From a bacterium (GTDB lineage Bacteria; Patescibacteriota; Patescibacteriia; SBBB01): a DNA stretch of 64,000 bases. The stretch spans positions 376-64,375 of the forward strand of contig SBBB01000027.1 of the NCBI GenBank assembly GCA_005239895.1, in the 5' to 3' direction. The position numbers and the translations under genes were made by a program. Positions 4,006 to 39,186 of this stretch are shown piece after piece (the stretch's first letter is position 1; every line of letters starts with the position of its first letter). The notes under the pieces are model-generated. The model made no database searches and was not told the origin of the DNA. It worked only from the letters and a program-made list of their open reading frames with translations.

Positions 4006-4156
4006 TTGTCATCCCCGACCTGATCGGGGATCCAGATTATGATTAAGCGTGCACGTTCCTGGATTCCCGTTTTCACGGGAATGACAGAAAAAAACTTGTC
4101 ATTCTCAAGTCCGTTCGGACATGAATGTCCTCAGGATCACGACCAGAGGATGACAA
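4006..4156. repeat. MITE-like GC-rich palindromic element (copy 1)
   Basis: Terminal inverted repeats TTGTCATCC ... GGATGACAA. Internal hairpins ATCCCCGA-N6-CGGGGAT and ATTCCCGT-TTTC-ACGGGAAT (ATTCCC-N8-GGGAAT type). Shares GCGTGCAC and GGATTCCCG modules with the copies at 38757 and 55538. Confidence 0.65.
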
Positions 4157-22930: not shown

Positions 22931-24946
22931 ATGAATCTTACTAAACAATCTTTTAATGATTTGACAAGTAGTCAGTTTCAAGATAGAGAGGTTTTTACAG
23001 CCCTGCAAGATGTTGTTTTAGATTGTGAGCGCTGGGCTCATTTAGGAGATATTTACGAGTTTTATATTATTTTAAAGCCTAAAATGAATGCTACTAAGGT
23101 TGATGGTCATTCTTTAGATATTTATTTGGAATATGAAGAATTGCTGATTAGAATGGGTTTTATTACTTTGCCGTTTCAGCCTCTTAGTGAGGTTGTAGAT
23201 TTATTTACCAAACATTTATTAGTAGCTTTAAAATTCAAAATAAACCTATTTGATAAATTTATTTTAAGATTTTTACTAAAAGATATAAAGGCTGTGCGCA
23301 CAGAACTTCAGGTTATTATTAAAGCCTTGGAAAGCAATTTGGAAATTATGGAGCCTGAAAACCCCACAATTCAACCCTACCCCATTAATTCCTGGATAAA
23401 CGACTATAAAAATTATTTAGAGAATAATAAGGGTACAACCAATACAATTGCTCAGTTTATAGATACGTTTATTACAGCCACAGTTGACGCTGATTTTAGA
23501 CAAAGAGTAAGAAGCGTTTTAAATATTTATGATTGGTTAGTAAATTACGAAGAACGTAAGCGCGCCAATACTATATCTACAGAGTTATATGTTAAAGACA
23601 ATGGTGTTTCCACTACTCGTGTTATCTCTAAAGCAGCTAACACTATTGATGTTAAAAAGAGTAATGAGGTTAGTATTCCTAAAGTTGATTATGATGCAAT
23701 TATTGATAAGGTTATTACAGAGTGTAATTTTAGTACGCAAGGAGAAATAATAGTAAAACGAGCTCGTAATATATGTTTAAGTTGTTTAAAAAATTTGCGA
23801 GATGTTGTAGATACTAAATTAATACTTATGCAGCCACAAACTAAAGGTGGTTTAGGTGTAACTGAAAAAATGGCCTATAAAATAATTAGTATGCTTACAG
23901 AGCATATTGATTTTGAATCCCAGATCCAAATTAAAAAGCCACTTCAAATGAAAATTTCTGTCACCCAATCATCTGATGCTGTTTTAGATCAATTAGAGTT
24001 AATGCCACCACCCCTAACTGTTATTTCAGTTGAACCAGAAGTGCCTGTTCCTCCGGTTGGTTCTACAACAACTGAAGAGAATGTGCTGGAAGAGAAACCC
24101 ATATTAAATCAGAATGAGTTGGTTGTTTCTTTAGAACCAGAAATACCCAATCCAATTATTACAGAGCCCACAGAACCAGTTGAGACAAGTCAAACTACTT
24201 TAAATTCTGTTGTAAATTCAGAAGTTTCTTTAGTGCCTGAAGAAGCTGTTACTGATTCTAAACAAACCAATTCACTTTTAGATCAACTAGAATTAATGCC
24301 ACCACCCCTAGCTGTTATTTCAGTTGAACCCGAAGTGCCTGTTCCTCCGGTTATTTCCACAATCACCGAAGTCAACCCACTTGAAGAAAAGCCCGTGTTA
24401 AATGAGTCAGTTATTTTTTCAGAACCAGAAATTCCAAAACAGGCTATTGTTCCAGACCCAGTAATTATTGAGACACCAACACCTGAAGCCCATCCCCTTA
24501 ATGCACAACCAATTACAAATGAAGCTGTTATACCGATTAAAGAAGAAGCTGTATCTAAAGAGATCGCGACTTCAGCAGTACTGGAAACATCCAAGGATTC
24601 GTTCAAAACCAGTCATAAATCACGAGTAATGACCCCCATTGATGAGTTGAGTGTTATGGGGTTGGTTGAATTTAGGCGTTTATCTGAAAATGCTTTTCAG
24701 GCTATGGAAAAACTTTCCAATAAATTAAAGCTTTGGGGACAAGAGTCGTTTTTAAAGCGCTTAGATGGAATAACAGCCTGGAGATCATCTCCCATACATC
24801 AGATGTATCTTGCGGTATGCAAAGAAAGTTTAAATCAGAATAAAAACCCATTTGACGTTATTAAAGCCCATAATAATCCTAAAGAGTATATCACCGTTGA
24901 TGAATATAGTGCTATAATATCTTTTAATATTAGTTTGAGAGTTTAA
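22931..24946 (+). CDS. hypothetical Pro/Glu-rich protein with internal ~98-aa tandem duplication
   Basis: DQLELMPPPL[T/A]VISVEPEVPVPPV... occurs twice. DNA repeats start at 23987 and 24281, near-identical over about 80 nt. Confidence 0.45.
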   Translation: MNLTKQSFNDLTSSQFQDREVFTALQDVVLDCERWAHLGDIYEFYIILKPKMNATKVDGHSLDIYLEYEELLIRMGFITLPFQPLSEVVDLFTKHLLVALKFKINLFDKFILRFLLKDIKAVRTELQVIIKALESNLEIMEPENPTIQPYPINSWINDYKNYLENNKGTTNTIAQFIDTFITATVDADFRQRVRSVLNIYDWLVNYEERKRANTISTELYVKDNGVSTTRVISKAANTIDVKKSNEVSIPKVDYDAIIDKVITECNFSTQGEIIVKRARNICLSCLKNLRDVVDTKLILMQPQTKGGLGVTEKMAYKIISMLTEHIDFESQIQIKKPLQMKISVTQSSDAVLDQLELMPPPLTVISVEPEVPVPPVGSTTTEENVLEEKPILNQNELVVSLEPEIPNPIITEPTEPVETSQTTLNSVVNSEVSLVPEEAVTDSKQTNSLLDQLELMPPPLAVISVEPEVPVPPVISTITEVNPLEEKPVLNESVIFSEPEIPKQAIVPDPVIIETPTPEAHPLNAQPITNEAVIPIKEEAVSKEIATSAVLETSKDSFKTSHKSRVMTPIDELSVMGLVEFRRLSENAFQAMEKLSNKLKLWGQESFLKRLDGITAWRSSPIHQMYLAVCKESLNQNKNPFDVIKAHNNPKEYITVDEYSAIISFNISLRV

Positions 24947-28718: not shown

Positions 28719-29449
28719 TAAAAAATTTAAAATCCTTAATTTGTGCAGGCTCAAAATTAGTTTTAGATTGTTTATTCCCACTCAAATGTTTAAGTTGCTA
28801 TAAAGAAGGTAGTTGGGTGTGTTCAGAGTGCTTGCCAAAATTAAAAATTAATAATTTTCAATATTGTATTATTTGCGAAGGTCGTAATTTAGATGGCAGG
28901 GTTTGCATGGCTTGCGCTGAAAAATCTTATTTAAATGGATTACTAGTGGTATTTGATTATAAACATTATTTGGTTAAAAAGTTGATTACTACTTTTAAAT
29001 ATCAAAAAGCTCACCAATTAAAATATTTTTTAAGTGATTATTTAGTTGATTTATTGCACACAGTTTTTATACTAAACTTAGATTTAGAAAAACAAGATGA
29101 TATGGTCGTAACTTTTGTGCCTTTGCACAAAAAGCGTTTAATTGAAAGGGGATTTGATCAAGCAAATCTACTGTCTGAAATCTTAGCCCAGCAGTTGAAT
29201 TTAAATTTTACTCAATTATTAGTTCGCACGAGATATACCATACCTCAAGTAAAGTTAAGCATAGATGAACGTTTAAACAATTTACAGGGGGCGTTTAAAG
29301 TTCAAGATGCTCGCCAGAGTATTTTTAATAAAAAAGTAATTTTAGTGGATGATGTTGTTACCACTGGATCTACAATGCAAGAATGCGCTCGAGTTTTAAA
29401 ATTAGCTGGAGCGGCTGAAGTGTGGGGAATAGCTATTGCTAAAGGGTAG
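28709..29449 (+). CDS. comFC: ComF family protein (double zinc ribbon + phosphoribosyltransferase domain)
   Basis: CxxC...CxxC ribbons at the N-terminus. PRTase motif VILVDDVVTTGSTM. Confidence 0.8.
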   Translation: MEIIKNLKSLICAGSKLVLDCLFPLKCLSCYKEGSWVCSECLPKLKINNFQYCIICEGRNLDGRVCMACAEKSYLNGLLVVFDYKHYLVKKLITTFKYQKAHQLKYFLSDYLVDLLHTVFILNLDLEKQDDMVVTFVPLHKKRLIERGFDQANLLSEILAQQLNLNFTQLLVRTRYTIPQVKLSIDERLNNLQGAFKVQDARQSIFNKKVILVDDVVTTGSTMQECARVLKLAGAAEVWGIAIAKG

Positions 29450-29504
29450 TATTTTATAAATTAATGTTATGATATTAGTGTAATATAATTGTAAATTTTT
29501 ATTT

Positions 29505-29549
29505 GTAAGAAACCTGCGCGATCGCGACAGTTTCTTACATTTTTTTTAT
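29505..29549 (+). terminator. rho-independent terminator after comFC
   Basis: GTAAGAAAC-CTGCGCGATCGCGACAG-GTTTCTTAC hairpin with inner CGCGATCGCG palindrome, then A-TTTTTTTT. Confidence 0.6.
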
Positions 29550-29654
29550 TTGATTTAGTATTTTTTAAAGAAAGAGAATAAAGAAAGAGAATGTGAGTGT
29601 GGGGGTGACGAGATTTCGTTGGTCGTACCCCCGATCATAATTTGTGTCAATGAC

Positions 29655-30404
29655 TTATTGCCACTTAAGTACTTTCGCTGCCACACGGAAGCTGTAACTA
29701 TGTTGTTGTACACGGGTCTTGCGTAGGGTTATCATGTCCTTGCGTAGAGTTGTTTCTTCTTCTCTTTTTTGGGTTGCGGGGTAGAAGAAATTTACAGGCA
29801 CGGAAATTACGCGATGACCATTGGCTATTGCTATTATAGATGCATAGATTTGAACATGCTTATCGAGCGCGTCAAATTGGGTTGGATTGCAAGCTGCAAA
29901 ATATTGAGCCATTTTACAGCTAAGCGCTACAGCTCCAAAGGGTATATCAAACCCCTTTTTTCCGGTTGCCTGCGAGAAAGCTGCGTTTGTTTCTTTTTCG
30001 GCCGTAACCTGAAAGTCTGGATAACTTGACCAACTTTCCTCAGTTCGTTTTGGCATTACAATATCAGCCTGGCCTTGCTCAATTGGGGCGATTATACTTG
30101 GTATCAGGCGAACCAGATCTACTTTCTCTGGTTCCATGGCAACCAGAACGTCAGACTCATTAAATCTGTCAACGCATATACCAAACAATTCCCGTTTTTG
30201 TTCGCCAAAGGTTTTGGCGGATGAGTTATGAACATCAGCGCCAATTCTTCTAAAAGATCTAGATATTTCAGGATTGGGGGATTTGTCTACTATCAATACA
30301 TCGTATCCGAGAGCAATAGCGTTGCCAATGGTTTGGCACGCTAAATGATATCGAATTGCTTCCTGGCTTTTATACAAGCTCGTCATAACTATCTTTATAC
30401 TCAT
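29655..30404 (-). CDS. hypothetical protein, elevated GC (possibly foreign)
   Basis: 249 aa. Codon usage and GC (about 45% by eye) differ from neighbours. Weak resemblance to a nucleotide-sugar-transferase-like fold only. Confidence 0.35.
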   Translation of the reverse strand: MSIKIVMTSLYKSQEAIRYHLACQTIGNAIALGYDVLIVDKSPNPEISRSFRRIGADVHNSSAKTFGEQKRELFGICVDRFNESDVLVAMEPEKVDLVRLIPSIIAPIEQGQADIVMPKRTEESWSSYPDFQVTAEKETNAAFSQATGKKGFDIPFGAVALSCKMAQYFAACNPTQFDALDKHVQIYASIIAIANGHRVISVPVNFFYPATQKREEETTLRKDMITLRKTRVQQHSYSFRVAAKVLKWQ

Positions 30405-30770
30405 TGTGATCCTCCTGGTTTTTACTTGCGTTTCCTTGACGCGAATAACTGACTCTTATGAGCAGCGCACTAGACATCTATCTGACTATTGGCAGGATTT
30501 AGCCATCCAATGCGCTGCTCACTACAATATCCAAACAATATTTATAAATTTACAAAGAACCTATATAATTAAGCCAAAATAATTTGGATTAAGTAAATTT
30601 TAACTTAATCACCATAGCACAAAATAAGAAAAAAGTCAAGAAGTGGTGGTGTCAACACACATGACAGTTTTTTGCAAGAATAAGCATAACTTAATTCATC
30701 CGCCAAGATTTAATAAGTAAATTGTAGGAGGGTGAATTTAGGAGGATAAATCCACTACAACTAAATACAA

Positions 30771-30856
30771 GTTTAAGCGGGTAAATTAGACAAAATTAGG
30801 TATATATTTTATAATATACTAGTAATTTTTAGTACAATTTTTAGTTAAAATATAAT
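30771..30856 (+). promoter_or_regulatory. 86-bp promoter-containing segment, copy A (-35 TTAGAC 30786-30791, 18-bp spacer, -10 TATAAT 30810-30815)
   Basis: About 93% identical to 31858..31943. Sigma70-like hexamers visible. Confidence 0.4.
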
Positions 30857-30858
30857 TT

Positions 30859-31119
30859 ATGACTCTACATAATTTAGTTAAAAAAAGATCTTACTTATTT
30901 TGGTCCACCAAAAATTATAAGGGGCTTTCTAAAGAAGCGGTTTTAGAAGGAGTTTTAAATTATGGAACCATGAAAGATGTGCAAGAGGTTTTCTCTATTT
31001 TAGGCATGAACAATGCGGCTAATATTTTTTATAAACAAATAAAAAATAAACGTAACAATTATCGCCCCGAAATAAAGAATTATTTTAAATTATATTTTAA
31101 AAAATATACACCCCGTTAG
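30859..31119 (+). CDS. small conserved partner protein of an AbiEii-like nucleotidyltransferase (putative antitoxin-like)
   Basis: 86 aa. Paralogous to 52808..53032 (shared LFW.T...L.K.A..Y...K...G pattern). Immediately upstream of the NTase. Confidence 0.4.
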   Translation: MTLHNLVKKRSYLFWSTKNYKGLSKEAVLEGVLNYGTMKDVQEVFSILGMNNAANIFYKQIKNKRNNYRPEIKNYFKLYFKKYTPR

Positions 31120-31148
31120 AAGCTGTCGTTACATTTTAGAATATCAAC

Positions 31149-31811
31149 ATGCAAATTATACACAAAAAAATTAAACATATTATACCTTCAGCATCTAATG
31201 GGATGCATCCCGAAGTGTTAACTAAAAAACAAATTGAGCTATTGCCGCTGATTAAATTATTTTCTAGTAATTTTGGTTTAGTTGGAGGTACGGCGATTGC
31301 TTTACAAATAGGTCACAGAGGATCATTAGATTTTGATCTTTTTACTAATAAAAGATTTGATAATTTATCAATAAGGGAAAAGATTTTAAAATATGGAAAA
31401 ATAGAAAAAGTTTTGGTTGATCATAAAGACGAGTATACTGTTTTGATAAAAGGAACAAAAATAACATTTCTTTATTATCCTTTTCAGCTGGCATTTTCTA
31501 AAAATTTTAACAATATTATAAAAATGGCTGATCTTTTAACAATAGCAGCTATGAAAGCTTACGCTCTTGGTCGTCGAGCAAAGTGGAAAGATTATGTGGA
31601 TCTTTATTTTATTTTAAGTATTTATAGTATGGATAAAATTATTCAAAAAGCTGATAAAATATTTGGCTCTGAATTTGATCAAAAATTGTTTAAGGTTCAG
31701 TTGAGTTATTTTAAAGATATTGATTATTCCGAAAAAATAATTTATAGGGACAAATTTCAAACTAGTGATAATACCATTAAAAAAGGATTGTTAGATTTTA
31801 TTTTTAAGTAA
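31149..31811 (+). CDS. AbiEii/DUF1814-family nucleotidyltransferase (type IV TA toxin-like)
   Basis: GLVGGTAIALQIGHRGSLDFDLF N-terminal NTase motif. C-terminal R.KWKDYVDLYFIL motif of the AbiEii family. Confidence 0.6.
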   Translation: MQIIHKKIKHIIPSASNGMHPEVLTKKQIELLPLIKLFSSNFGLVGGTAIALQIGHRGSLDFDLFTNKRFDNLSIREKILKYGKIEKVLVDHKDEYTVLIKGTKITFLYYPFQLAFSKNFNNIIKMADLLTIAAMKAYALGRRAKWKDYVDLYFILSIYSMDKIIQKADKIFGSEFDQKLFKVQLSYFKDIDYSEKIIYRDKFQTSDNTIKKGLLDFIFK

Positions 31812-31857
31812 ACCAATAAAATTAATTAATAAAGTTTTAATACAACGAGGTTAATAA

Positions 31858-31943
31858 GTTTAGGTGGGTAAATTAGACAAAAACAGGTATATATTTTATA
31901 ATATACTAGTAATTTTTAGCACAATTTTTAGTTAAAATATAAT
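31858..31943 (+). promoter_or_regulatory. 86-bp promoter-containing segment, copy B (-35 TTAGAC 31874-31879, -10 TATAAT 31897-31902) upstream of aspS
   Basis: Direct repeat of 30771..30856. Confidence 0.4.
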
Positions 31944-31952
31944 GTATTATAC

Positions 31953-33737
31953 ATGCTTAGAACACATACTTGTGGTGAATTAAGGTTAAAAAACGTCAAT
32001 ACGGTTGTTACTTTGTCTGGATGGGTATCCAGTATTCGTAACCACGGAGGTTTAATTTTTATGGATTTGCGCGATCATTATGGTATTACGCAAATAGTTT
32101 TTGATCCTCAAAAAAATACTTCTAATATTAATTCTATAGTTGAAGAAATTGGTTTAGAGTGGGTTGTTAAAATTACAGGTAAAATTATAGCCAGACAATC
32201 CGATGTTGTTAATTCAAAAATATCCACGGGTGAAATTGAAATCTTAGCCCAAGAAATAGAAGTTTTAAGTAAGTCAATAATATTGCCATTTGAAATTAGT
32301 GATAAGACCGATGCTGTAAATGAAAATTTGCGGTTGAAGTATAGATACCTGGATTTGCGACGCTCAAAGTTGCAAAACATTTTAAGTATTCGAGATAAAT
32401 ATATTCAACATATTCGTAATTACTTTCATGCTAATGGTTTTATGGAAGTTCAAACTCCAATTTTAGCTAATTCTTCTCCGGAAGGCGCGCGGGATTTTTT
32501 AGTGCCCTCTCGTTTATATCCTGGAAAATTTTACGCCCTACCTCAAGCTCCGCAACAATTTAAACAACTTTTAATGGTGGGTGGTATAGATAAATATTTT
32601 CAAATTGCGCCATGTTTTCGCGATGAAGATCCTCGCCTGGATCGTCATTATGGAGAGTTTTATCAATTGGACATGGAAATGAGTTTTGTGGAGCAAGAAG
32701 ATGTTTTTGCTATAATGGAACCACTTATGAAAGAATTGATAGAAAAATTTAGTTCTAAAAAAATTTGTAATCTATTGCCCAATGGTAATTTTCAGAGACT
32801 AACTTGGAAAGAAGCCATGGAAAAATATGGTTCTGATAAGCCCGACCTGCGTTTTGGTTTAGAAATTATTAAAATAGATGATTTGGTTGAAAATTCTGGT
32901 TTTGCAGTATTTGATAAGGTTTTAAAAAACAAAGGAGTTGTGCATGCTCTTAAAATAGATGGGGGGGCTAAGTTCACGCGTTCTGAATTGGATAATTTTG
33001 AAGTCTTAGCCAAGAAAAACGGAGCAGGCGGGTTAGCGTATCTTACTTTAAATAATGATGCGTTGGTTTCACCTTTAATTAAATTTTTAGGCGAACAAAA
33101 GTTGCGAGAAATTGCAACTAAGGTTAAGGCCCAAAACGGAGATGTAGTTTTTTTTGCAGCTGATGATTTTGTAAAAGTATGTAGTATTTTAGGCGCAGTG
33201 AGGAGTCAGGCTGCTAATCTTTTGGGATTGAAAGATAATGCTAGGGTGGCCTTGGTGTGGATTGTTGATTTTCCCATGTATAGTTATTCGGAGATTGAAA
33301 CTGACAAAATTGATTTTTCTCATAATCCATTTTGTATGCCCCAGGGAGGACTTAAGGCTCTTCAAGAAAAGTCACCTTTAGAAATTTTGGCTTATCAATA
33401 TGATTTAGTGTTTAATGGTTTTGAAATTTCTAGCGGGGCTATACGCAATCACGATCCCGAAATAATGTACGAAGCTTTTAAAATAGCTGGATACACTCGA
33501 GAGCAGGTTGATAATAAATTTAGATCTATGATTACTGCTTTTACTTACGGAGCTCCACCTCACGGAGGTAATGCGCCAGGCATAGATCGTATTTTAATGT
33601 TATTAAACGATGTCGATTCAATACGCGATATTTATGCGTTTCCTAAAGATGGTCAGGGTAAAGACTTAATGTCTAATGCGCCGAGTTCCGTTGAACCCAA
33701 TCAGTTGAAAGACCTTCATTTGCGTTTGGTAGACTAA
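31953..33737 (+). CDS. aspS: aspartate--tRNA ligase
   Basis: MLRTHTCGELR N-terminus, OB fold, class II motifs (FRDE, GGNAPGIDR). Confidence 0.95.
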   Translation: MLRTHTCGELRLKNVNTVVTLSGWVSSIRNHGGLIFMDLRDHYGITQIVFDPQKNTSNINSIVEEIGLEWVVKITGKIIARQSDVVNSKISTGEIEILAQEIEVLSKSIILPFEISDKTDAVNENLRLKYRYLDLRRSKLQNILSIRDKYIQHIRNYFHANGFMEVQTPILANSSPEGARDFLVPSRLYPGKFYALPQAPQQFKQLLMVGGIDKYFQIAPCFRDEDPRLDRHYGEFYQLDMEMSFVEQEDVFAIMEPLMKELIEKFSSKKICNLLPNGNFQRLTWKEAMEKYGSDKPDLRFGLEIIKIDDLVENSGFAVFDKVLKNKGVVHALKIDGGAKFTRSELDNFEVLAKKNGAGGLAYLTLNNDALVSPLIKFLGEQKLREIATKVKAQNGDVVFFAADDFVKVCSILGAVRSQAANLLGLKDNARVALVWIVDFPMYSYSEIETDKIDFSHNPFCMPQGGLKALQEKSPLEILAYQYDLVFNGFEISSGAIRNHDPEIMYEAFKIAGYTREQVDNKFRSMITAFTYGAPPHGGNAPGIDRILMLLNDVDSIRDIYAFPKDGQGKDLMSNAPSSVEPNQLKDLHLRLVD

Positions 33738-37471: not shown

Positions 37472-38722
37472 ATGCCAAAAATAAAAAAGAAACTTAAAGT
37501 TAACAAAAAAAAGTTATTGGTTGTTAAAAAGAAACTTAAAGTTAACAAAAAAAAGCTGTTAGTTACTAAAAGCAAGAGCAGTTTTAAAAAACATAAAAAA
37601 CACTACAAGTTCCACAGGCCATTAAAGAATCTTAAAAAACCAGTGGTTGTTTTTGATCAAGCTGTAGCTCAGGCTTTGTTTAGAAAAGGAGAGGTGAGAG
37701 AGTTTATTACTTATCAAGAATTATTGTATGCTTTTACAGATGTCGAAGAGTATTTAGATGATTATTTGCGCTTTTTAGATTCTTTAGAAGCTCGCGGTAT
37801 AGAAATAAGAGAATCAGCTACGGAGTTTTTAAATTCGGAGCCTAAAAAAATAAAATTAAAGAATGAACCAGTTTATATTGGCAAGGGTTTGGATTTAGTT
37901 CAAGACCCTTTACAAATTTATTTAACGGAAATTGGAAATACTTCTTTATTGGATAGTGTCAATGAAACCATATTAGCTAAAGAAAAAGAAAGCGGTTCTA
38001 TGGATGCTAGGGCTAAGTTAATTAAAGCGAACTTACGTTTGGTTGTTTCTATTGCTAAAAAATTTGTGGGTAAGGGTTTGTCGCTTTTAGATTTAATTCA
38101 AGAAGGTAATATTGGAATTTTTAAGGCGGTGGAAAAATTTGAGTATCGCAAGGGTTACAAATTTTCCACTTATGCGACCTGGTGGATACGTCAATCTATT
38201 ACGCGCGCCTTAGCTGATCAGTCTAGGATTATTCGCATTCCAGTTCACATGGTTGAGAATATTAATAAATTGCAGCAAGTTCAAAGGCAGCTGGTGCAAG
38301 ATTTAGGGCGCGAATCATTTTTGGAAGAAATTGCCACGGAAATGAACGAAGATATTGACCGCGTTAGATATATTATTAAGATTTCGCAAGACACACTGTC
38401 GTTGGCTACTATTATTGGCAATGACGACGACGAAAGCACCTTAGAAGATTTTATTGAAGATGTAAAAAATGTTCGTTCGGATACAGCCGCGAGTTTGGAA
38501 ATTTTAAAAACCTACATTCGCGATGTTTTGAGTAGTTTAAAACCCAGAGAGCAGAAAATTTTATCTATGCGGTTTGGTTTAGCCGATGGTATTTCCCATA
38601 CCCTGGAAGAGATTGGTCAAGAGTTTAAAGTAACGCGGGAAAGAATTAGGCAGATTGAAGCTAAGACTATTGAAAAAATTCTTAAACATAGGGACATTAA
38701 AAAATTAGAAGATTTTTATTAA
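37472..38722 (+). CDS. rpoD: RNA polymerase sigma factor RpoD with Lys-rich repetitive N-terminal tail
   Basis: Region 2 [17 protein letters not shown]...TYATWWIRQ, region 4 HTH. N-terminal [27 protein letters not shown] encoded by a ~42-bp tandem repeat at 37487..37554. Confidence 0.9.
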
Positions 38723-38756: not shown

Positions 38757-38940
38757 TGTCATTCCCGCGAAGGCGGGAATCCAGGAGCGTGCACACTTAT
38801 CATTATTGTTTCGATCGTACGAAATACCAAACTCCAATTGCACTGAGACTCTCAGAGTCGAATACTTGAGGGTCTTCAGACCCGATGGGATTCAAAATTT
38901 TAATAAAAAACCTGGATTCCCGCCTGCGCGGGAATGACAG
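38757..38940. repeat. MITE-like GC-rich palindromic element (copy 2)
   Basis: TGTCATTCCCGCGAAGGCGGGAATCCAGG at the 5' end and CCTGGATTCCCGCCTGCGCGGGAATGACAG at the 3' end (inverted ATTCCC-N8-GGGAAT hairpins). Internal GAGACTCTCAGAGTC palindrome. The 68-aa ORF inside it is spurious. Confidence 0.7.
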
Positions 38941-39042: not shown

Positions 39043-39117
39043 TCCGGTGTAGCGCAGCGGTAGCGCAGGTGCCTGTTAAGCACTTGGTCGCAGGTTCGAA
39101 TCCTGCCACCGGAGCCA
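39043..39117 (+). tRNA. tRNA-Asn (anticodon GTT), CCA encoded
   Basis: TCCGGTG acceptor, GCGC-AGCGGTA-GCGC D-arm, anticodon loop CTGTTAA, T-arm GCAGG-TTCGAAT-CCTGC, GCCA 3' end. Confidence 0.9.
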
Positions 39118-39120
39118 TCT

Positions 39121-39186
39121 TACGCTAAAGCTACAGAATGGCTGACGCCATCTTACGCTAAAGCTACAGAATGGCTGACGCCATCT
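39121..39186 (+). repeat. two tandem 33-bp units (TACGCTAAAGCTACAGAATGGCTGACGCCATCT), each ending with a copy of the tRNA-Asn 3' end GCCATCT
   Basis: Perfect direct repeat immediately 3' of tRNA-Asn. GCCATCT occurs at 39114, 39147 and 39180. T-run follows. Confidence 0.7.

What the first reader, a model, noticed from the sequence alone, without database searches (positions are those of the whole stretch)
30771..31943. AbiEii-like toxin module bracketed by an 86-bp direct repeat carrying a promoter
The small ORF (30859..31119) and DUF1814/AbiEii nucleotidyltransferase (31149..31811) sit exactly between two about 93% identical 86-bp segments (30771..30856 and 31858..31943). Each segment contains -35 TTAGAC / -10 TATAAT. 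One copy drives the module and the other drives aspS. This looks like a cassette insertion that duplicated the aspS promoter region, or recombination between promoter copies. It is a possible mechanism for moving small defense/TA cassettes in a genome lacking obvious transposases.
Basis: seen in the sequence. Interest (0 to 1): 0.6.

Follow-up and report, generated by a model that had tools for sequence, protein, structure and literature searches.

The report
Toxin cassette between duplicated aspS promoters
A 1-kb two-gene toxin–antitoxin-type cassette sits just upstream of the essential aspS gene of an uncultured Patescibacteria bacterium, between two 93%-identical copies of the aspS promoter; the same cassette family lies between locus-specific repeats of neighbouring host sequence in other Patescibacteria, which points to gene-cassette spread by recombination without a transposase.

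Summary
A 92-nt direct repeat (30769-30860 and 31856-31947, 86/92 identical, 1087 nt apart) brackets a small DUF6922-family ORF and an AbiEii-family nucleotidyltransferase. The right copy ends 5 nt before aspS. Each copy carries TAGACA-17-TATAAT. The repeat occurs only twice in the window.

No close relative exists (next-best AspS is 70% identical), so the empty-site test cannot be run. I compared 80 metagenomic loci carrying the same two-gene unit:
- DNA similarity between loci stops at the unit's ends.
- In 12 loci the unit lies between locus-specific direct repeats of adjacent host sequence (34-142 nt, 86-95% identical; a possible thirteenth has 19 nt).
- HicAB and other cassettes show the same pattern, sometimes as arrays of three to five gene-end stubs.
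- Where the repeats are coding, the copies differ mainly at third codon positions (16/5/43; 39 synonymous vs 14 non-synonymous codons; P=3e-8). The stubs therefore come from diverged orthologues, not from in-place copying followed by decay.

Best reading: the cassette arrived by recombination anchored in homologous flanking DNA (homology-facilitated illegitimate recombination, or a single crossover of a circle). This left donor and recipient promoter copies, one driving the cassette and one driving aspS. For the window itself this rests on analogy.

The parts
30769..30860 (+). Left copy of the 92-nt direct repeat (aspS promoter and leader sequence). It ends on the A and T of the small ORF's start codon.
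30787..30815 (+). Promoter-like site TAGACA-17 nt-TATAAT in the left copy. It is the only candidate promoter for the cassette.
   Evidence: 11 of 12 consensus matches. Function is inferred.
30859..31119 (+). Small ORF, 86 aa, DUF6922 family. It is the conserved upstream partner of the nucleotidyltransferase and the presumed antitoxin.
   Evidence: The window protein scores below the Pfam cut-off (16.8 bits vs 27), but it aligns full-length with the partner ORFs of the other loci. 18 of 22 aligned members hit DUF6922, best E=1.3e-10.
31149..31811 (+). AbiEii/DUF1814-family nucleotidyltransferase, the presumed toxin. The ORF starts at 31149, but the start conserved in homologues is the ATG at 31203 (202 aa).
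   Evidence: Pfam AbiEii 38.2 bits, cut-off 22.5. At least 7962 homologues, mostly about 203 aa. Invariant G28, G37, D43 and D45 in alignment A1. The model's fold matches JHP933 (4ok0) and MenT1 (8an5_B) with TM 0.45-0.52.
30861..31855 (+). Inserted segment between the repeat copies (995 nt, GC 0.264 against 0.337 for the window).
31856..31947 (+). Right copy of the 92-nt direct repeat. It ends 5 nt before the aspS start codon.
31874..31902 (+). Promoter-like site TAGACA-17 nt-TATAAT in the right copy, the candidate aspS promoter. A second, weaker site, TTAGCA-16 nt-TATAAT, lies at 31916-31943.
31953..33737 (+). aspS (aspartate-tRNA ligase), the host gene whose upstream region is repeated.

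Best explanation
What it is. The segment 30861-31855 is a horizontally acquired two-gene toxin-antitoxin-type cassette: a DUF6922 small protein plus an AbiEii-family nucleotidyltransferase. It lies between the aspS promoter and aspS.

How it got there (inferred). DNA from a related bacterium was taken up. That DNA already carried the cassette next to its own aspS promoter region. One end recombined through homology in or around the promoter/aspS region. The other end joined illegitimately at the start codon of the small ORF. This is homology-facilitated illegitimate recombination. A single crossover of a circle carrying the cassette plus one promoter copy would give an equivalent product. Either way the recipient's and the donor's promoter segments both stay in the chromosome, as a 93%-identical direct repeat around the cassette.

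Consequences (inferred). The left copy now transcribes the cassette, which has lost its own leader. The right copy keeps aspS under its normal promoter, so insertion next to an essential gene costs nothing. The 35-nt identical core could later allow the cassette to be lost or amplified by repeat-by-repeat recombination.

Shown: the anatomy, the family membership of the two proteins, the discreteness of the cassette, the recurrence of locus-specific flanking repeats, and the orthologue-like divergence of coding repeats in related loci.

Inferred: that the window's non-coding repeat has the same origin, which copy came from the donor, DNA uptake as the route, promoter activity, and toxin/antitoxin function.
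For: (1) Anatomy. The repeat, the promoter-like sites and the cassette abutting the left copy at its ATG are seen.

(2) The cassette is a discrete unit. Pairs of loci share 77-87% DNA identity over about 840-1055 nt covering just the two genes, while their flanks are unrelated (for example L110 vs L119, 86% over 884 nt).

(3) Flanking direct repeats recur. 13 repeat pairs bracket the unit in 12 of 80 loci; about 57 loci have both flanks long enough to test. Examples: L120 142 nt at 94%, L119 86 nt at 88%, L085 82 nt at 88%, L159 60 nt at 92%. In Patescibacteria control sequence (the 64-kb window plus 10 AspS loci) the only such repeat is the one under study.

(4) The repeats differ in sequence from locus to locus and are copies of adjacent host sequence. 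Some are 3' ends of upstream genes (GT11 in L120, L143, SagB in L085 and L177, Nudix in L105). Others are 5' ends or promoter regions of downstream genes (L119, xth in L181), which is the window's geometry.

(5) Other cassettes are bracketed the same way, and arrays occur. L085 has three SagB 3'-end copies separating AbiEii and HicAB cassettes. L181 has five xth 5'-end copies separating four units, including DUF6922+AbiEii and MNT/HEPN.

(6) Codon test. Differences between the gene-attached copy and the stub fall 16/5/43 on codon positions 1/2/3, with 39 synonymous and 14 non-synonymous codons. P=3e-8 against a uniform distribution, and P=1.5e-4 against a model in which the stub decays neutrally.

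(7) The L085 stub is 85.8% identical to the SagB gene of L177 but only 79.2% identical to its own adjacent gene.

(8) Independent hits at one site. The HicAB cassettes after SagB in L085 and L177 are unrelated in DNA. L178-L180 show the empty site.

(9) Precedent. HFIR has been proposed for T6SS effector-immunity arrays and Rhs orphan arrays (PMC5361080). Insertion with long target duplication is documented for RM systems, mostly in naturally competent species (PMC2853133).
Against: - No close relative of this genome exists in any collection searched. Neither an empty site nor a donor can be shown for the window.
- The window's repeat is non-coding, so the codon test cannot be applied to it. 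Transfer of the conclusion is by analogy.
- Only 12 of about 57 testable loci show repeats. The repeats flanking AbiEii cassettes alone give a weak codon signal (5/1/8). Most of the signal comes from repeats around HicAB cassettes.
- The 6 mismatches in 92 nt could also have accumulated after an in-place duplication. That they avoid the two promoter hexamers is not significant (about 0.43 by chance).
- Natural competence of this organism is assumed, not shown.
- The first arrival of a cassette at a new site is not explained by the model.
Confidence: 0.55

Rival explanations
1. Classical 'insertion with long target duplication'. The cassette inserted into a single promoter copy, 92 nt of target were copied on the spot (staggered breaks or replication template switching), and the two copies have since diverged by 6.5%.
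For: The geometry is the same as the RM insertions of Nobusato 2000 and Furuta 2010. The window's repeat is non-coding, so nothing in the window itself contradicts this. The copies are fairly similar, at 93%.
Against: In related loci the repeat copies differ mainly at synonymous third positions, keep their reading frame and stop codon, and are as diverged as orthologues. That is not expected for a non-functional copy decaying in place. No locus with over 95% identity was seen, although assemblies break at perfect repeats, so this absence is biased.
Confidence: 0.2
2. Chance or regulatory duplication. The 92-nt segment is a reusable promoter element of this genome (dispersed or locally duplicated for regulation), and the cassette happens to lie between two copies. 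The repeat says nothing about how the cassette arrived.
For: Both copies carry a near-consensus promoter. Only a 64.6-kb contig of the genome is available, so other copies cannot be excluded.
Against: There are only two copies in 64 kb and no exact core match in the metagenome collection. The repeat ends exactly at the cassette's start codon on the left and 44 nt after its stop codon on the right. The same bracketing recurs at unrelated host sequences in other genomes, including coding gene ends that are not promoters.
Confidence: 0.07
3. Site-specific recombination by an enzyme acting in trans (integron-like attC, Xer/dif-module-like, or an integrase att site). The repeats would be recombination sites.
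For: Arrays of cassettes separated by repeats (L181, L085) look superficially like integron arrays.
Against: The repeats share no sequence between loci. Their length varies from 19 to 142 nt, and they are plainly pieces of the neighbouring host genes. No recombinase gene lies inside the repeat-bounded segment. No terminal inverted repeats lie at the cassette ends.
Confidence: 0.03
4. Assembly artefact. The cassette belongs elsewhere and was joined in through the shared 35-nt core.
For: Short-read graphs break at the core. The Logan cassette contig starts at 30855 for no reason a two-copy repeat explains (note). The left junction is supported in that assembly by only a few bases.
Against: The copies differ at six positions on both sides of the core. 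Independent contigs carry consistent copy-specific bases: L184 has the left-copy variants, L002 the variants in the left part of the right copy, and L001 those in its right part. The 35-nt core is far shorter than a read. The same architecture is seen in many independent assemblies of other organisms.
Confidence: 0.03

Closest known systems
Insertion with long target duplication of restriction-modification gene units (Nobusato et al. 2000, Gene 259:99; Furuta, Abe & Kobayashi 2010, NAR, PMC2853133)
   Same: A small addiction-type gene unit with no mobility gene sits between direct repeats of target sequence longer than 30 bp. The repeats vary in length and sequence from locus to locus, may overlap gene ends, and were found mostly in naturally competent bacteria.
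   Different: Those cases involve RM systems in cultured Proteobacteria and similar groups, and were shown by comparison with empty sites. In several of them the two repeats are more alike than either is to the empty site, which fits in-place duplication. Here the cargo is a TA-type cassette in Patescibacteria, no empty site is available, and in related loci the copies look like diverged orthologues.
Homology-facilitated illegitimate recombination, and the orphan arrays attributed to it: T6SS effector-immunity arrays in Vibrio (Kirchberger et al. 2017, PMC5361080) and Rhs/CDI orphan 3' ends
   Same: A one-sided homologous anchor in a conserved gene plus an illegitimate join at the other end. 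Successive events push older gene ends outward and leave arrays of stubs. L085 and L181 show exactly such arrays.
   Different: In those systems the variable end of the toxin gene itself is displaced. Here the anchor is an unrelated housekeeping gene (aspS, SagB-type dehydrogenase, xth, GT11) and the cargo is a self-contained TA cassette. In the window the retained piece is a promoter, not a gene end. HFIR is inferred in both cases and demonstrated in neither.
AbiE / MenAT nucleotidyltransferase toxin-antitoxin systems (AbiEii, DUF1814; MenT)
   Same: The larger protein passes the Pfam AbiEii cut-off, keeps the invariant glycine and aspartate residues of the family alignment, and its model resembles MenT1 and JHP933. 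It is a two-gene operon with a small upstream partner.
   Different: The partner is an 86-aa DUF6922 protein, not the AbiEi/COG5340 winged-helix antitoxin. There are no NCBIfam hits and only weak PADLOC hits. No solved structure is detectable by sequence. Toxicity, target and phage defence are untested.
Minimal mobile elements of Neisseria (Saunders & Snyder 2002; cited from my own knowledge, with related papers listed)
   Same: Gene cassettes without mobility genes are exchanged between conserved flanking genes by transformation and homologous recombination.
   Different: Minimal mobile elements use homology on both sides and leave no flanking repeat. Here one junction is non-homologous and a repeat is left behind.
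Integron gene cassettes and Acinetobacter pdif modules
   Same: Small promoterless or single-operon cassettes, often TA modules, accumulate in arrays and use an external promoter.
   Different: Those need conserved attC or pdif sites and IntI or XerCD. Here the repeats are host-gene fragments with no sequence shared between loci.

Membership tests
AbiEii / DUF1814 nucleotidyltransferase toxin (Pfam PF08843) | Profile match above the curated cut-off | tested here: met
   38.2 bits against a cut-off of 22.5, E=2e-9, residues 39-178. All 120 listed homologues carry PF08843.
AbiEii / DUF1814 nucleotidyltransferase toxin (Pfam PF08843) | Pol-beta-type nucleotidyltransferase motifs (a glycine-rich motif followed by a D-x-D motif) and fold | tested here: met
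   GGTAIAL...GHRxSxDFD is conserved, with G28, G37, D43 and D45 invariant in alignment A1. The AlphaFold model has pLDDT 78. Its best PDB matches are the H. pylori putative nucleotidyltransferase 4ok0 (E=5.6e-4), MenT1 8an5_B (TM 0.48/0.52) and pol beta palm domains. The structural similarity is moderate.
AbiE type IV TA system (AbiEi + AbiEii) | Cognate AbiEi antitoxin (COG5340, winged-helix N-terminal domain) encoded upstream | tested here: not met
   The upstream gene is an 86-aa DUF6922-family protein. No AbiEi hit in Pfam, NCBIfam or PADLOC.
AbiE type IV TA system (AbiEi + AbiEii) | Toxicity neutralised by the partner; abortive infection | not testable with these tools
   Needs expression experiments.
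DUF6922 (Pfam PF21956) | Profile match above the curated cut-off | tested here: inconclusive
   The window protein scores 16.8 bits against a cut-off of 27. It aligns full-length with partner ORFs, of which 18 of 22 hit DUF6922 at E<=0.01, best 1.3e-10. The partner in L181 has a precomputed PF21956 hit.
Insertion with long target duplication (criteria of Furuta et al. 2010) | Complete selfish gene unit, insert under 20 kb, no mobility gene inside | tested here: met
   The insert is 995 nt and contains only the two cassette genes.
Insertion with long target duplication (criteria of Furuta et al. 2010) | Flanking direct repeat longer than 30 bp that is unique in the genome | tested here: met
   92 nt, two copies only in the 64-kb window. 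The rest of the genome is not available.
Insertion with long target duplication (criteria of Furuta et al. 2010) | A related genome with an empty site holding a single copy of the repeat | not testable with these tools
   The next-best AspS is 70% identical, with a different upstream context. The exact core was not found in metagenome contigs. An empty site was found only for a related hotspot: SagB in L178-L180.
Product of homology-facilitated illegitimate recombination or single-crossover integration of diverged DNA | The two repeat copies have different evolutionary origins (donor and recipient) | tested here: inconclusive
   Met in related loci: codon positions 16/5/43, P=3e-8, and a stub closer to another species' gene than to its own neighbour. 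It cannot be tested on the window's non-coding repeat.
Product of homology-facilitated illegitimate recombination or single-crossover integration of diverged DNA | One junction without homology, at a short microhomology | tested here: inconclusive
   The left junction falls on TAT/ATG, with 3 identical bases after the last mismatch. That is too short to tell from chance.
Integron cassette / site-specific module | Conserved recombination site (attC, dif) at cassette boundaries and a linked recombinase | tested here: not met
   The repeats of different loci share no sequence and are host-gene fragments. No recombinase lies between the repeats.
Transposon / IS / MITE | Terminal inverted repeats, short target duplication, transposase | tested here: not met
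   No inverted repeat pairs the two cassette ends. The flanking repeat is 92 nt. The segment holds only the two cassette genes.

The most novel reading that the evidence does not exclude
Patescibacteria may have a general, recombinase-free way of accreting cassettes. Toxin-antitoxin and defence cassettes would travel between related genomes attached to a homologous 'handle': the end or the promoter of a conserved housekeeping gene. They would integrate by one-sided homologous recombination after DNA uptake. Repeated events would build integron-like arrays of cassettes separated by gene-end or promoter stubs, and the retained promoter stubs would express the newcomers. The aspS locus in this window would be a single-cassette instance with promoter capture.
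Probability: 0.4. Interest if true: 0.7.

Novelty: new variant of a known kind. Interest (0 to 1): 0.55.

Why it matters
Patescibacteria have very small genomes and few recognisable mobile elements, so how they gain and lose defence and addiction modules is poorly understood.

If cassettes spread by riding on homologous gene ends or promoters, several things follow:
- Small accessory cassettes could turn over without transposases or integrases.
- Insertion next to essential genes would be harmless, because the gene end or promoter is kept.
- The incoming cassette would get a ready-made promoter.
- The process would leave a recognisable scar (a gene-end or promoter stub) that can be used to map recent acquisitions and possibly their donors in metagenome-assembled genomes.

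There is also a practical point. Such repeats fragment short-read assemblies: in the Logan assembly of SRR6943130 this cassette sits on its own 1,060-nt contig, and many contigs that carry homologues are only 1-2 kb long, although that is close to the collection's usual contig length. Stubs can also be mis-annotated as pseudogenes or small ORFs.

Tried and rejected
- Close relatives. A GTDB species-representative scan with AspS gave at most 65% identity and no synteny. The 5.8-billion-protein search gave 70% as next best. So there is no empty-site comparison for the window. The context of the two nearest AspS relatives shows no cassette, but the upstream genes differ, so it is uninformative.
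- An exact 34-nt core scan of metagenome contigs gave 0 hits.
- Are short cassette contigs circular or bounded by perfect repeats? None of 24 contigs under 2.4 kb has a terminal overlap.
- The identical NTase protein P0125 in 'different contexts' (L172 vs L163) turned out to share the downstream gene as well. It is not evidence for cassette-level movement.
- Sequence search of PDB with the NTase profile found nothing meaningful.
- Rfam scan of 29400-32100 found nothing above noise.
- The small protein folded as a single sequence (pLDDT 67, four helices) gave no fold match.
- NCBIfam gave no hits for either cassette protein, and PADLOC gave only weak AbiEii hits.
- A diversity-generating-retroelement reading of the imperfect repeats was rejected. 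There is no reverse transcriptase, and the mismatches are not adenine-specific.
- Exact look-up of the small ORF product found it not on record.
Full report
1. THE OBSERVATION

The repeat finder reports a 92-nt direct repeat at 30769-30860 and 31856-31947, 93% identical, 1087 nt apart. The six mismatches lie at 30776, 30778, 30796, 30797, 30833 and 30857. The longest identical blocks are 35 nt and 23 nt. A 34-nt core of the repeat occurs exactly twice in the window even with three mismatches allowed, and never in 100 shuffles. A window-wide scan finds no other intergenic repeat of this kind.

Between the copies lie an 86-aa ORF (30859-31119) and a 220-aa ORF (31149-31811). The larger one passes the Pfam AbiEii cut-off (38.2 bits against 22.5). 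aspS follows at 31953.

The left copy ends on the A and T of the small ORF's ATG. The right copy ends 5 nt before the aspS ATG. The two best promoter-like sites in the region are TAGACA-17 nt-TATAAT at the same position in both copies (11 of 12 matches). No terminator-like site was found.

An independent k=31 assembly of run SRR6943130 breaks at the shared core, as a repeat should make it. Its contigs carry the copy-specific bases in the expected order.

2. WHERE THE WINDOW COMES FROM, AND WHY THE PROPOSED TEST FAILS

The window is nearly all of a 64,648-bp contig of an uncultured Patescibacteria bacterium.

- Its AspS is a singleton in a collection of 15 billion proteins. The next-best hit is 70% identical.
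- GTDB species representatives reach at most 65% identity and share no synteny.
- The two nearest relatives have other genes upstream of aspS.
- The repeat core is absent from the metagenome contig collection.

I therefore asked whether the cassette behaves the same way elsewhere.

3. THE CASSETTE IS A WIDESPREAD, DISCRETE TWO-GENE UNIT

- The nucleotidyltransferase has at least 7962 homologues. Those that carry a source name are all from Patescibacteria. They are about 203 aa long and 55-66% identical.
- They start at the position of the window's second methionine, so the real start here is probably the ATG at 31203.
- In the 80 metagenomic loci retrieved with the family alignment, nearly every copy is preceded by the same ~84-aa ORF, usually overlapping the NTase start by 8 nt.
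- The window's small ORF aligns full-length with these partners. 18 of 22 aligned members hit Pfam DUF6922, best E=1.3e-10. The window's own score of 16.8 bits is below the cut-off.
- The NTase model (pLDDT 78) best matches the H. pylori nucleotidyltransferase 4ok0 and the MenT1 toxin, with TM about 0.45-0.52. The invariant glycines and aspartates of the family alignment are present.
- The partner is not an AbiEi antitoxin. The pair therefore works like an AbiE/MenAT-type module but does not meet that system's definition.
- Between loci from different organisms, DNA similarity (77-87%) covers only the two genes plus some 20-30 nt. The flanks are unrelated. The unit moves as a unit.

4. FLANKING REPEATS RECUR AND ARE HOST SEQUENCE

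I compared the 500 nt upstream of the unit with the 500 nt downstream in every locus that has both flanks (57 loci), and also ran a self-comparison of each locus.

- 13 direct-repeat pairs bracket the unit in 12 loci. They are 34-142 nt long, 86-95% identical, and 936-1721 nt apart. A possible thirteenth locus (L103) has a 19-nt repeat.
- In Patescibacteria control sequence (the window plus ten AspS loci, about 180 kb) the only such repeat is the one under study.
- The repeats share nothing between loci.
- They are pieces of the adjacent host DNA. Examples are the last 94 nt plus terminator of a GT11 gene (L120), the last codons and stop of an upstream gene (L143), the 3' end of a SagB-type dehydrogenase (L085), and the start region of a downstream gene (L119).
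- Other repeat pairs in the same loci bracket other cassettes. These include HicAB (L085, L119, L172, L177), a second AbiEii-type pair (L158) and an unknown pair (L105).
- Two loci hold arrays. L085 has three copies of the SagB 3' end separating an AbiEii cassette and a HicAB cassette. L181 has five copies of the first ~16 codons of xth separating four units, among them DUF6922+AbiEii and MNT/HEPN.
- L181 has the window's geometry. The stub, and presumably its promoter, lies directly upstream of the cassette.
- The SagB 3' end has been hit independently. The HicAB cassettes of L085 and L177 are unrelated in DNA. L178-L180 show the site empty.

5. THE REPEAT COPIES ARE DIVERGED ORTHOLOGUES, NOT DECAYED DUPLICATES

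Where a repeat is coding, I compared the copy attached to the gene with the detached stub, in the gene's reading frame. This covered seven comparisons in six loci.

- The 64 differences fall 16/5/43 on codon positions 1/2/3. 39 changed codons are synonymous and 14 are not.
- P=3e-8 against a uniform distribution. P=1.5e-4 against a model in which the stub decays neutrally while the gene evolves under constraint.
- Stubs keep their frame and stop codon.
- The L085 stub is 85.8% identical to the SagB gene of another organism (L177) but only 79.2% identical to its own neighbour. Stub-to-gene distances equal those between species.

A detached fragment cannot have evolved this way in place. It was part of a working gene for most of the divergence time. 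So one copy came from a different lineage, together with the cassette.

Caveat: repeats flanking AbiEii cassettes alone give only 5/1/8. Most of the signal comes from HicAB-flanking repeats at the SagB hotspot.

6. MECHANISM

The simplest process that gives all of this is recombination anchored in homology on one side only. It would explain:
- locus-specific repeats of variable length;
- gene ends and promoters preserved rather than disrupted;
- no recombinase;
- orthologue-like divergence between the copies;
- arrays in which older stubs lie further from the gene.

Donor DNA carrying 'conserved gene end or promoter + cassette' would pair with the recipient's homologue. The far end would join illegitimately at a point that leaves the recipient's own copy in place. 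This is homology-facilitated illegitimate recombination. It is described for naturally transformable bacteria and has been invoked for T6SS effector-immunity arrays and Rhs orphan arrays. A single crossover of a circular 'cassette + one repeat' molecule would give the same product, and I cannot separate the two.

For the window, this means either the left or the right promoter copy is donor-derived. The non-homologous junction would be either at the small ORF's ATG (30858-30861) or at 31855/31856.

The cassette here has no leader of its own. In other loci 16-130 nt, often with a TGnTAnAAT motif, precede the small ORF. In the window, expression must therefore come from the left promoter copy. 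That is inference from sequence.

The classical alternative, 92 nt copied at insertion as proposed for RM systems, remains possible for this one non-coding repeat.

7. COMPARISON WITH KNOWN SYSTEMS, AND NOVELTY

- The architecture matches 'insertion with long target duplication' (Nobusato 2000; Furuta 2010) on every criterion that can be tested. The criterion that cannot be tested is an empty site in a relative.
- The arrays match the orphan arrays of Rhs/CDI/T6SS loci in logic.
- It is not an integron, a dif module, a transposon or an integrase island. There is no conserved site, no terminal inverted repeats and no recombinase.
- My literature searches found no mention of DUF6922 and no report of TA cassettes with such repeats in Patescibacteria. 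The library is limited to open-access papers.

I rate it a new variant of a known kind. The cargo (a DUF6922/AbiEii-type module), the lineage, the use of housekeeping gene ends and promoters as anchors, and the promoter capture are new. The underlying recombination logic is not.

8. VERDICT

- Observation: confirmed.
- Interpretation: partly supported. It is right about cassette insertion and transposase-free mobility. The 'duplication' is more likely a donor copy plus a recipient copy.
- Confidence in the recombination-with-homologous-anchor model for this locus: about 0.55.
- Interest: 0.55.

Noticed in passing
window 39114-39179 (beside tRNA-Asn 39043-39117): A perfect 33-nt tandem duplication, GCCATCTTACGCTAAAGCTACAGAATGGCTGAC x2, starts in the last bases of tRNA-Asn. 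A third partial unit, GCCATCTTTTTG, follows. Each unit can form a GCCAT...ATGGC hairpin.
   Followed up: partly
window 4058-4087 and 38911-38940: Two copies (87% identical) of a GC-rich hairpin-like 30-mer, CCTGGATTCCCG....CGGGAATGACAG, stand out in an AT-rich genome. It may be a small dispersed element.
   Followed up: no
window 29655-30404 (- strand): A 249-aa ORF just upstream of the left repeat has GC 0.425, against 0.337 for the window. It has no Pfam hit and only a weak AglJ-glycosyltransferase-like NCBIfam hit. It may itself be foreign DNA.
   Followed up: partly
window 31120-31202: In the window the small ORF's stop and the conserved NTase start are 83 nt apart (or the NTase has an 18-aa N-terminal extension from 31149). 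In almost all homologous loci the two genes overlap by 8 nt.
   Followed up: partly
window 30855 (start of Logan contig L002): The independent k=31 contig carrying the cassette begins 4 nt before the small-ORF ATG, although no exact repeat of 31 nt or more ends there. A graph branch at that point would mean a second left-hand context for the cassette in the reads.
   Followed up: partly
L181 1880-4720: Five copies of the first ~16 codons of an exonuclease III (xth) gene separate four small units: a DUF4325-like ORF, DUF6922+AbiEii, a 50-aa ORF, and MNT/HEPN. This is an integron-like array without an integrase.
   Followed up: yes
L085 3560-5390; L177 5577-6380: The 3' end of a SagB/ThcOx-type dehydrogenase gene is a recurrent landing site. 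L085 has three end copies with AbiEii and HicAB cassettes between them. L177 has an unrelated HicAB cassette with an 81%-identical stub that carries an internal deletion. L178-L180 have the site empty.
   Followed up: yes
L126 1263-1877: The NTase of this repeat-flanked cassette is split into two ORFs (85 and 99 aa), so it is apparently a decaying copy. Its flanking repeat is a terminator hairpin.
   Followed up: no
window 37484-37567 and 22931-24946: A 42-nt tandem repeat lies at the start of ORF 37472-38722. 131-nt and 38-nt internal repeats lie in ORF 22931-24946.
   Followed up: no
window 30727-30745: Two GGAGG motifs (taggagggtgaatttaggagg) lie in the intergenic region upstream of the left repeat, with no start codon at Shine-Dalgarno distance. 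Neither the small ORF nor aspS has a recognisable Shine-Dalgarno sequence.
   Followed up: no
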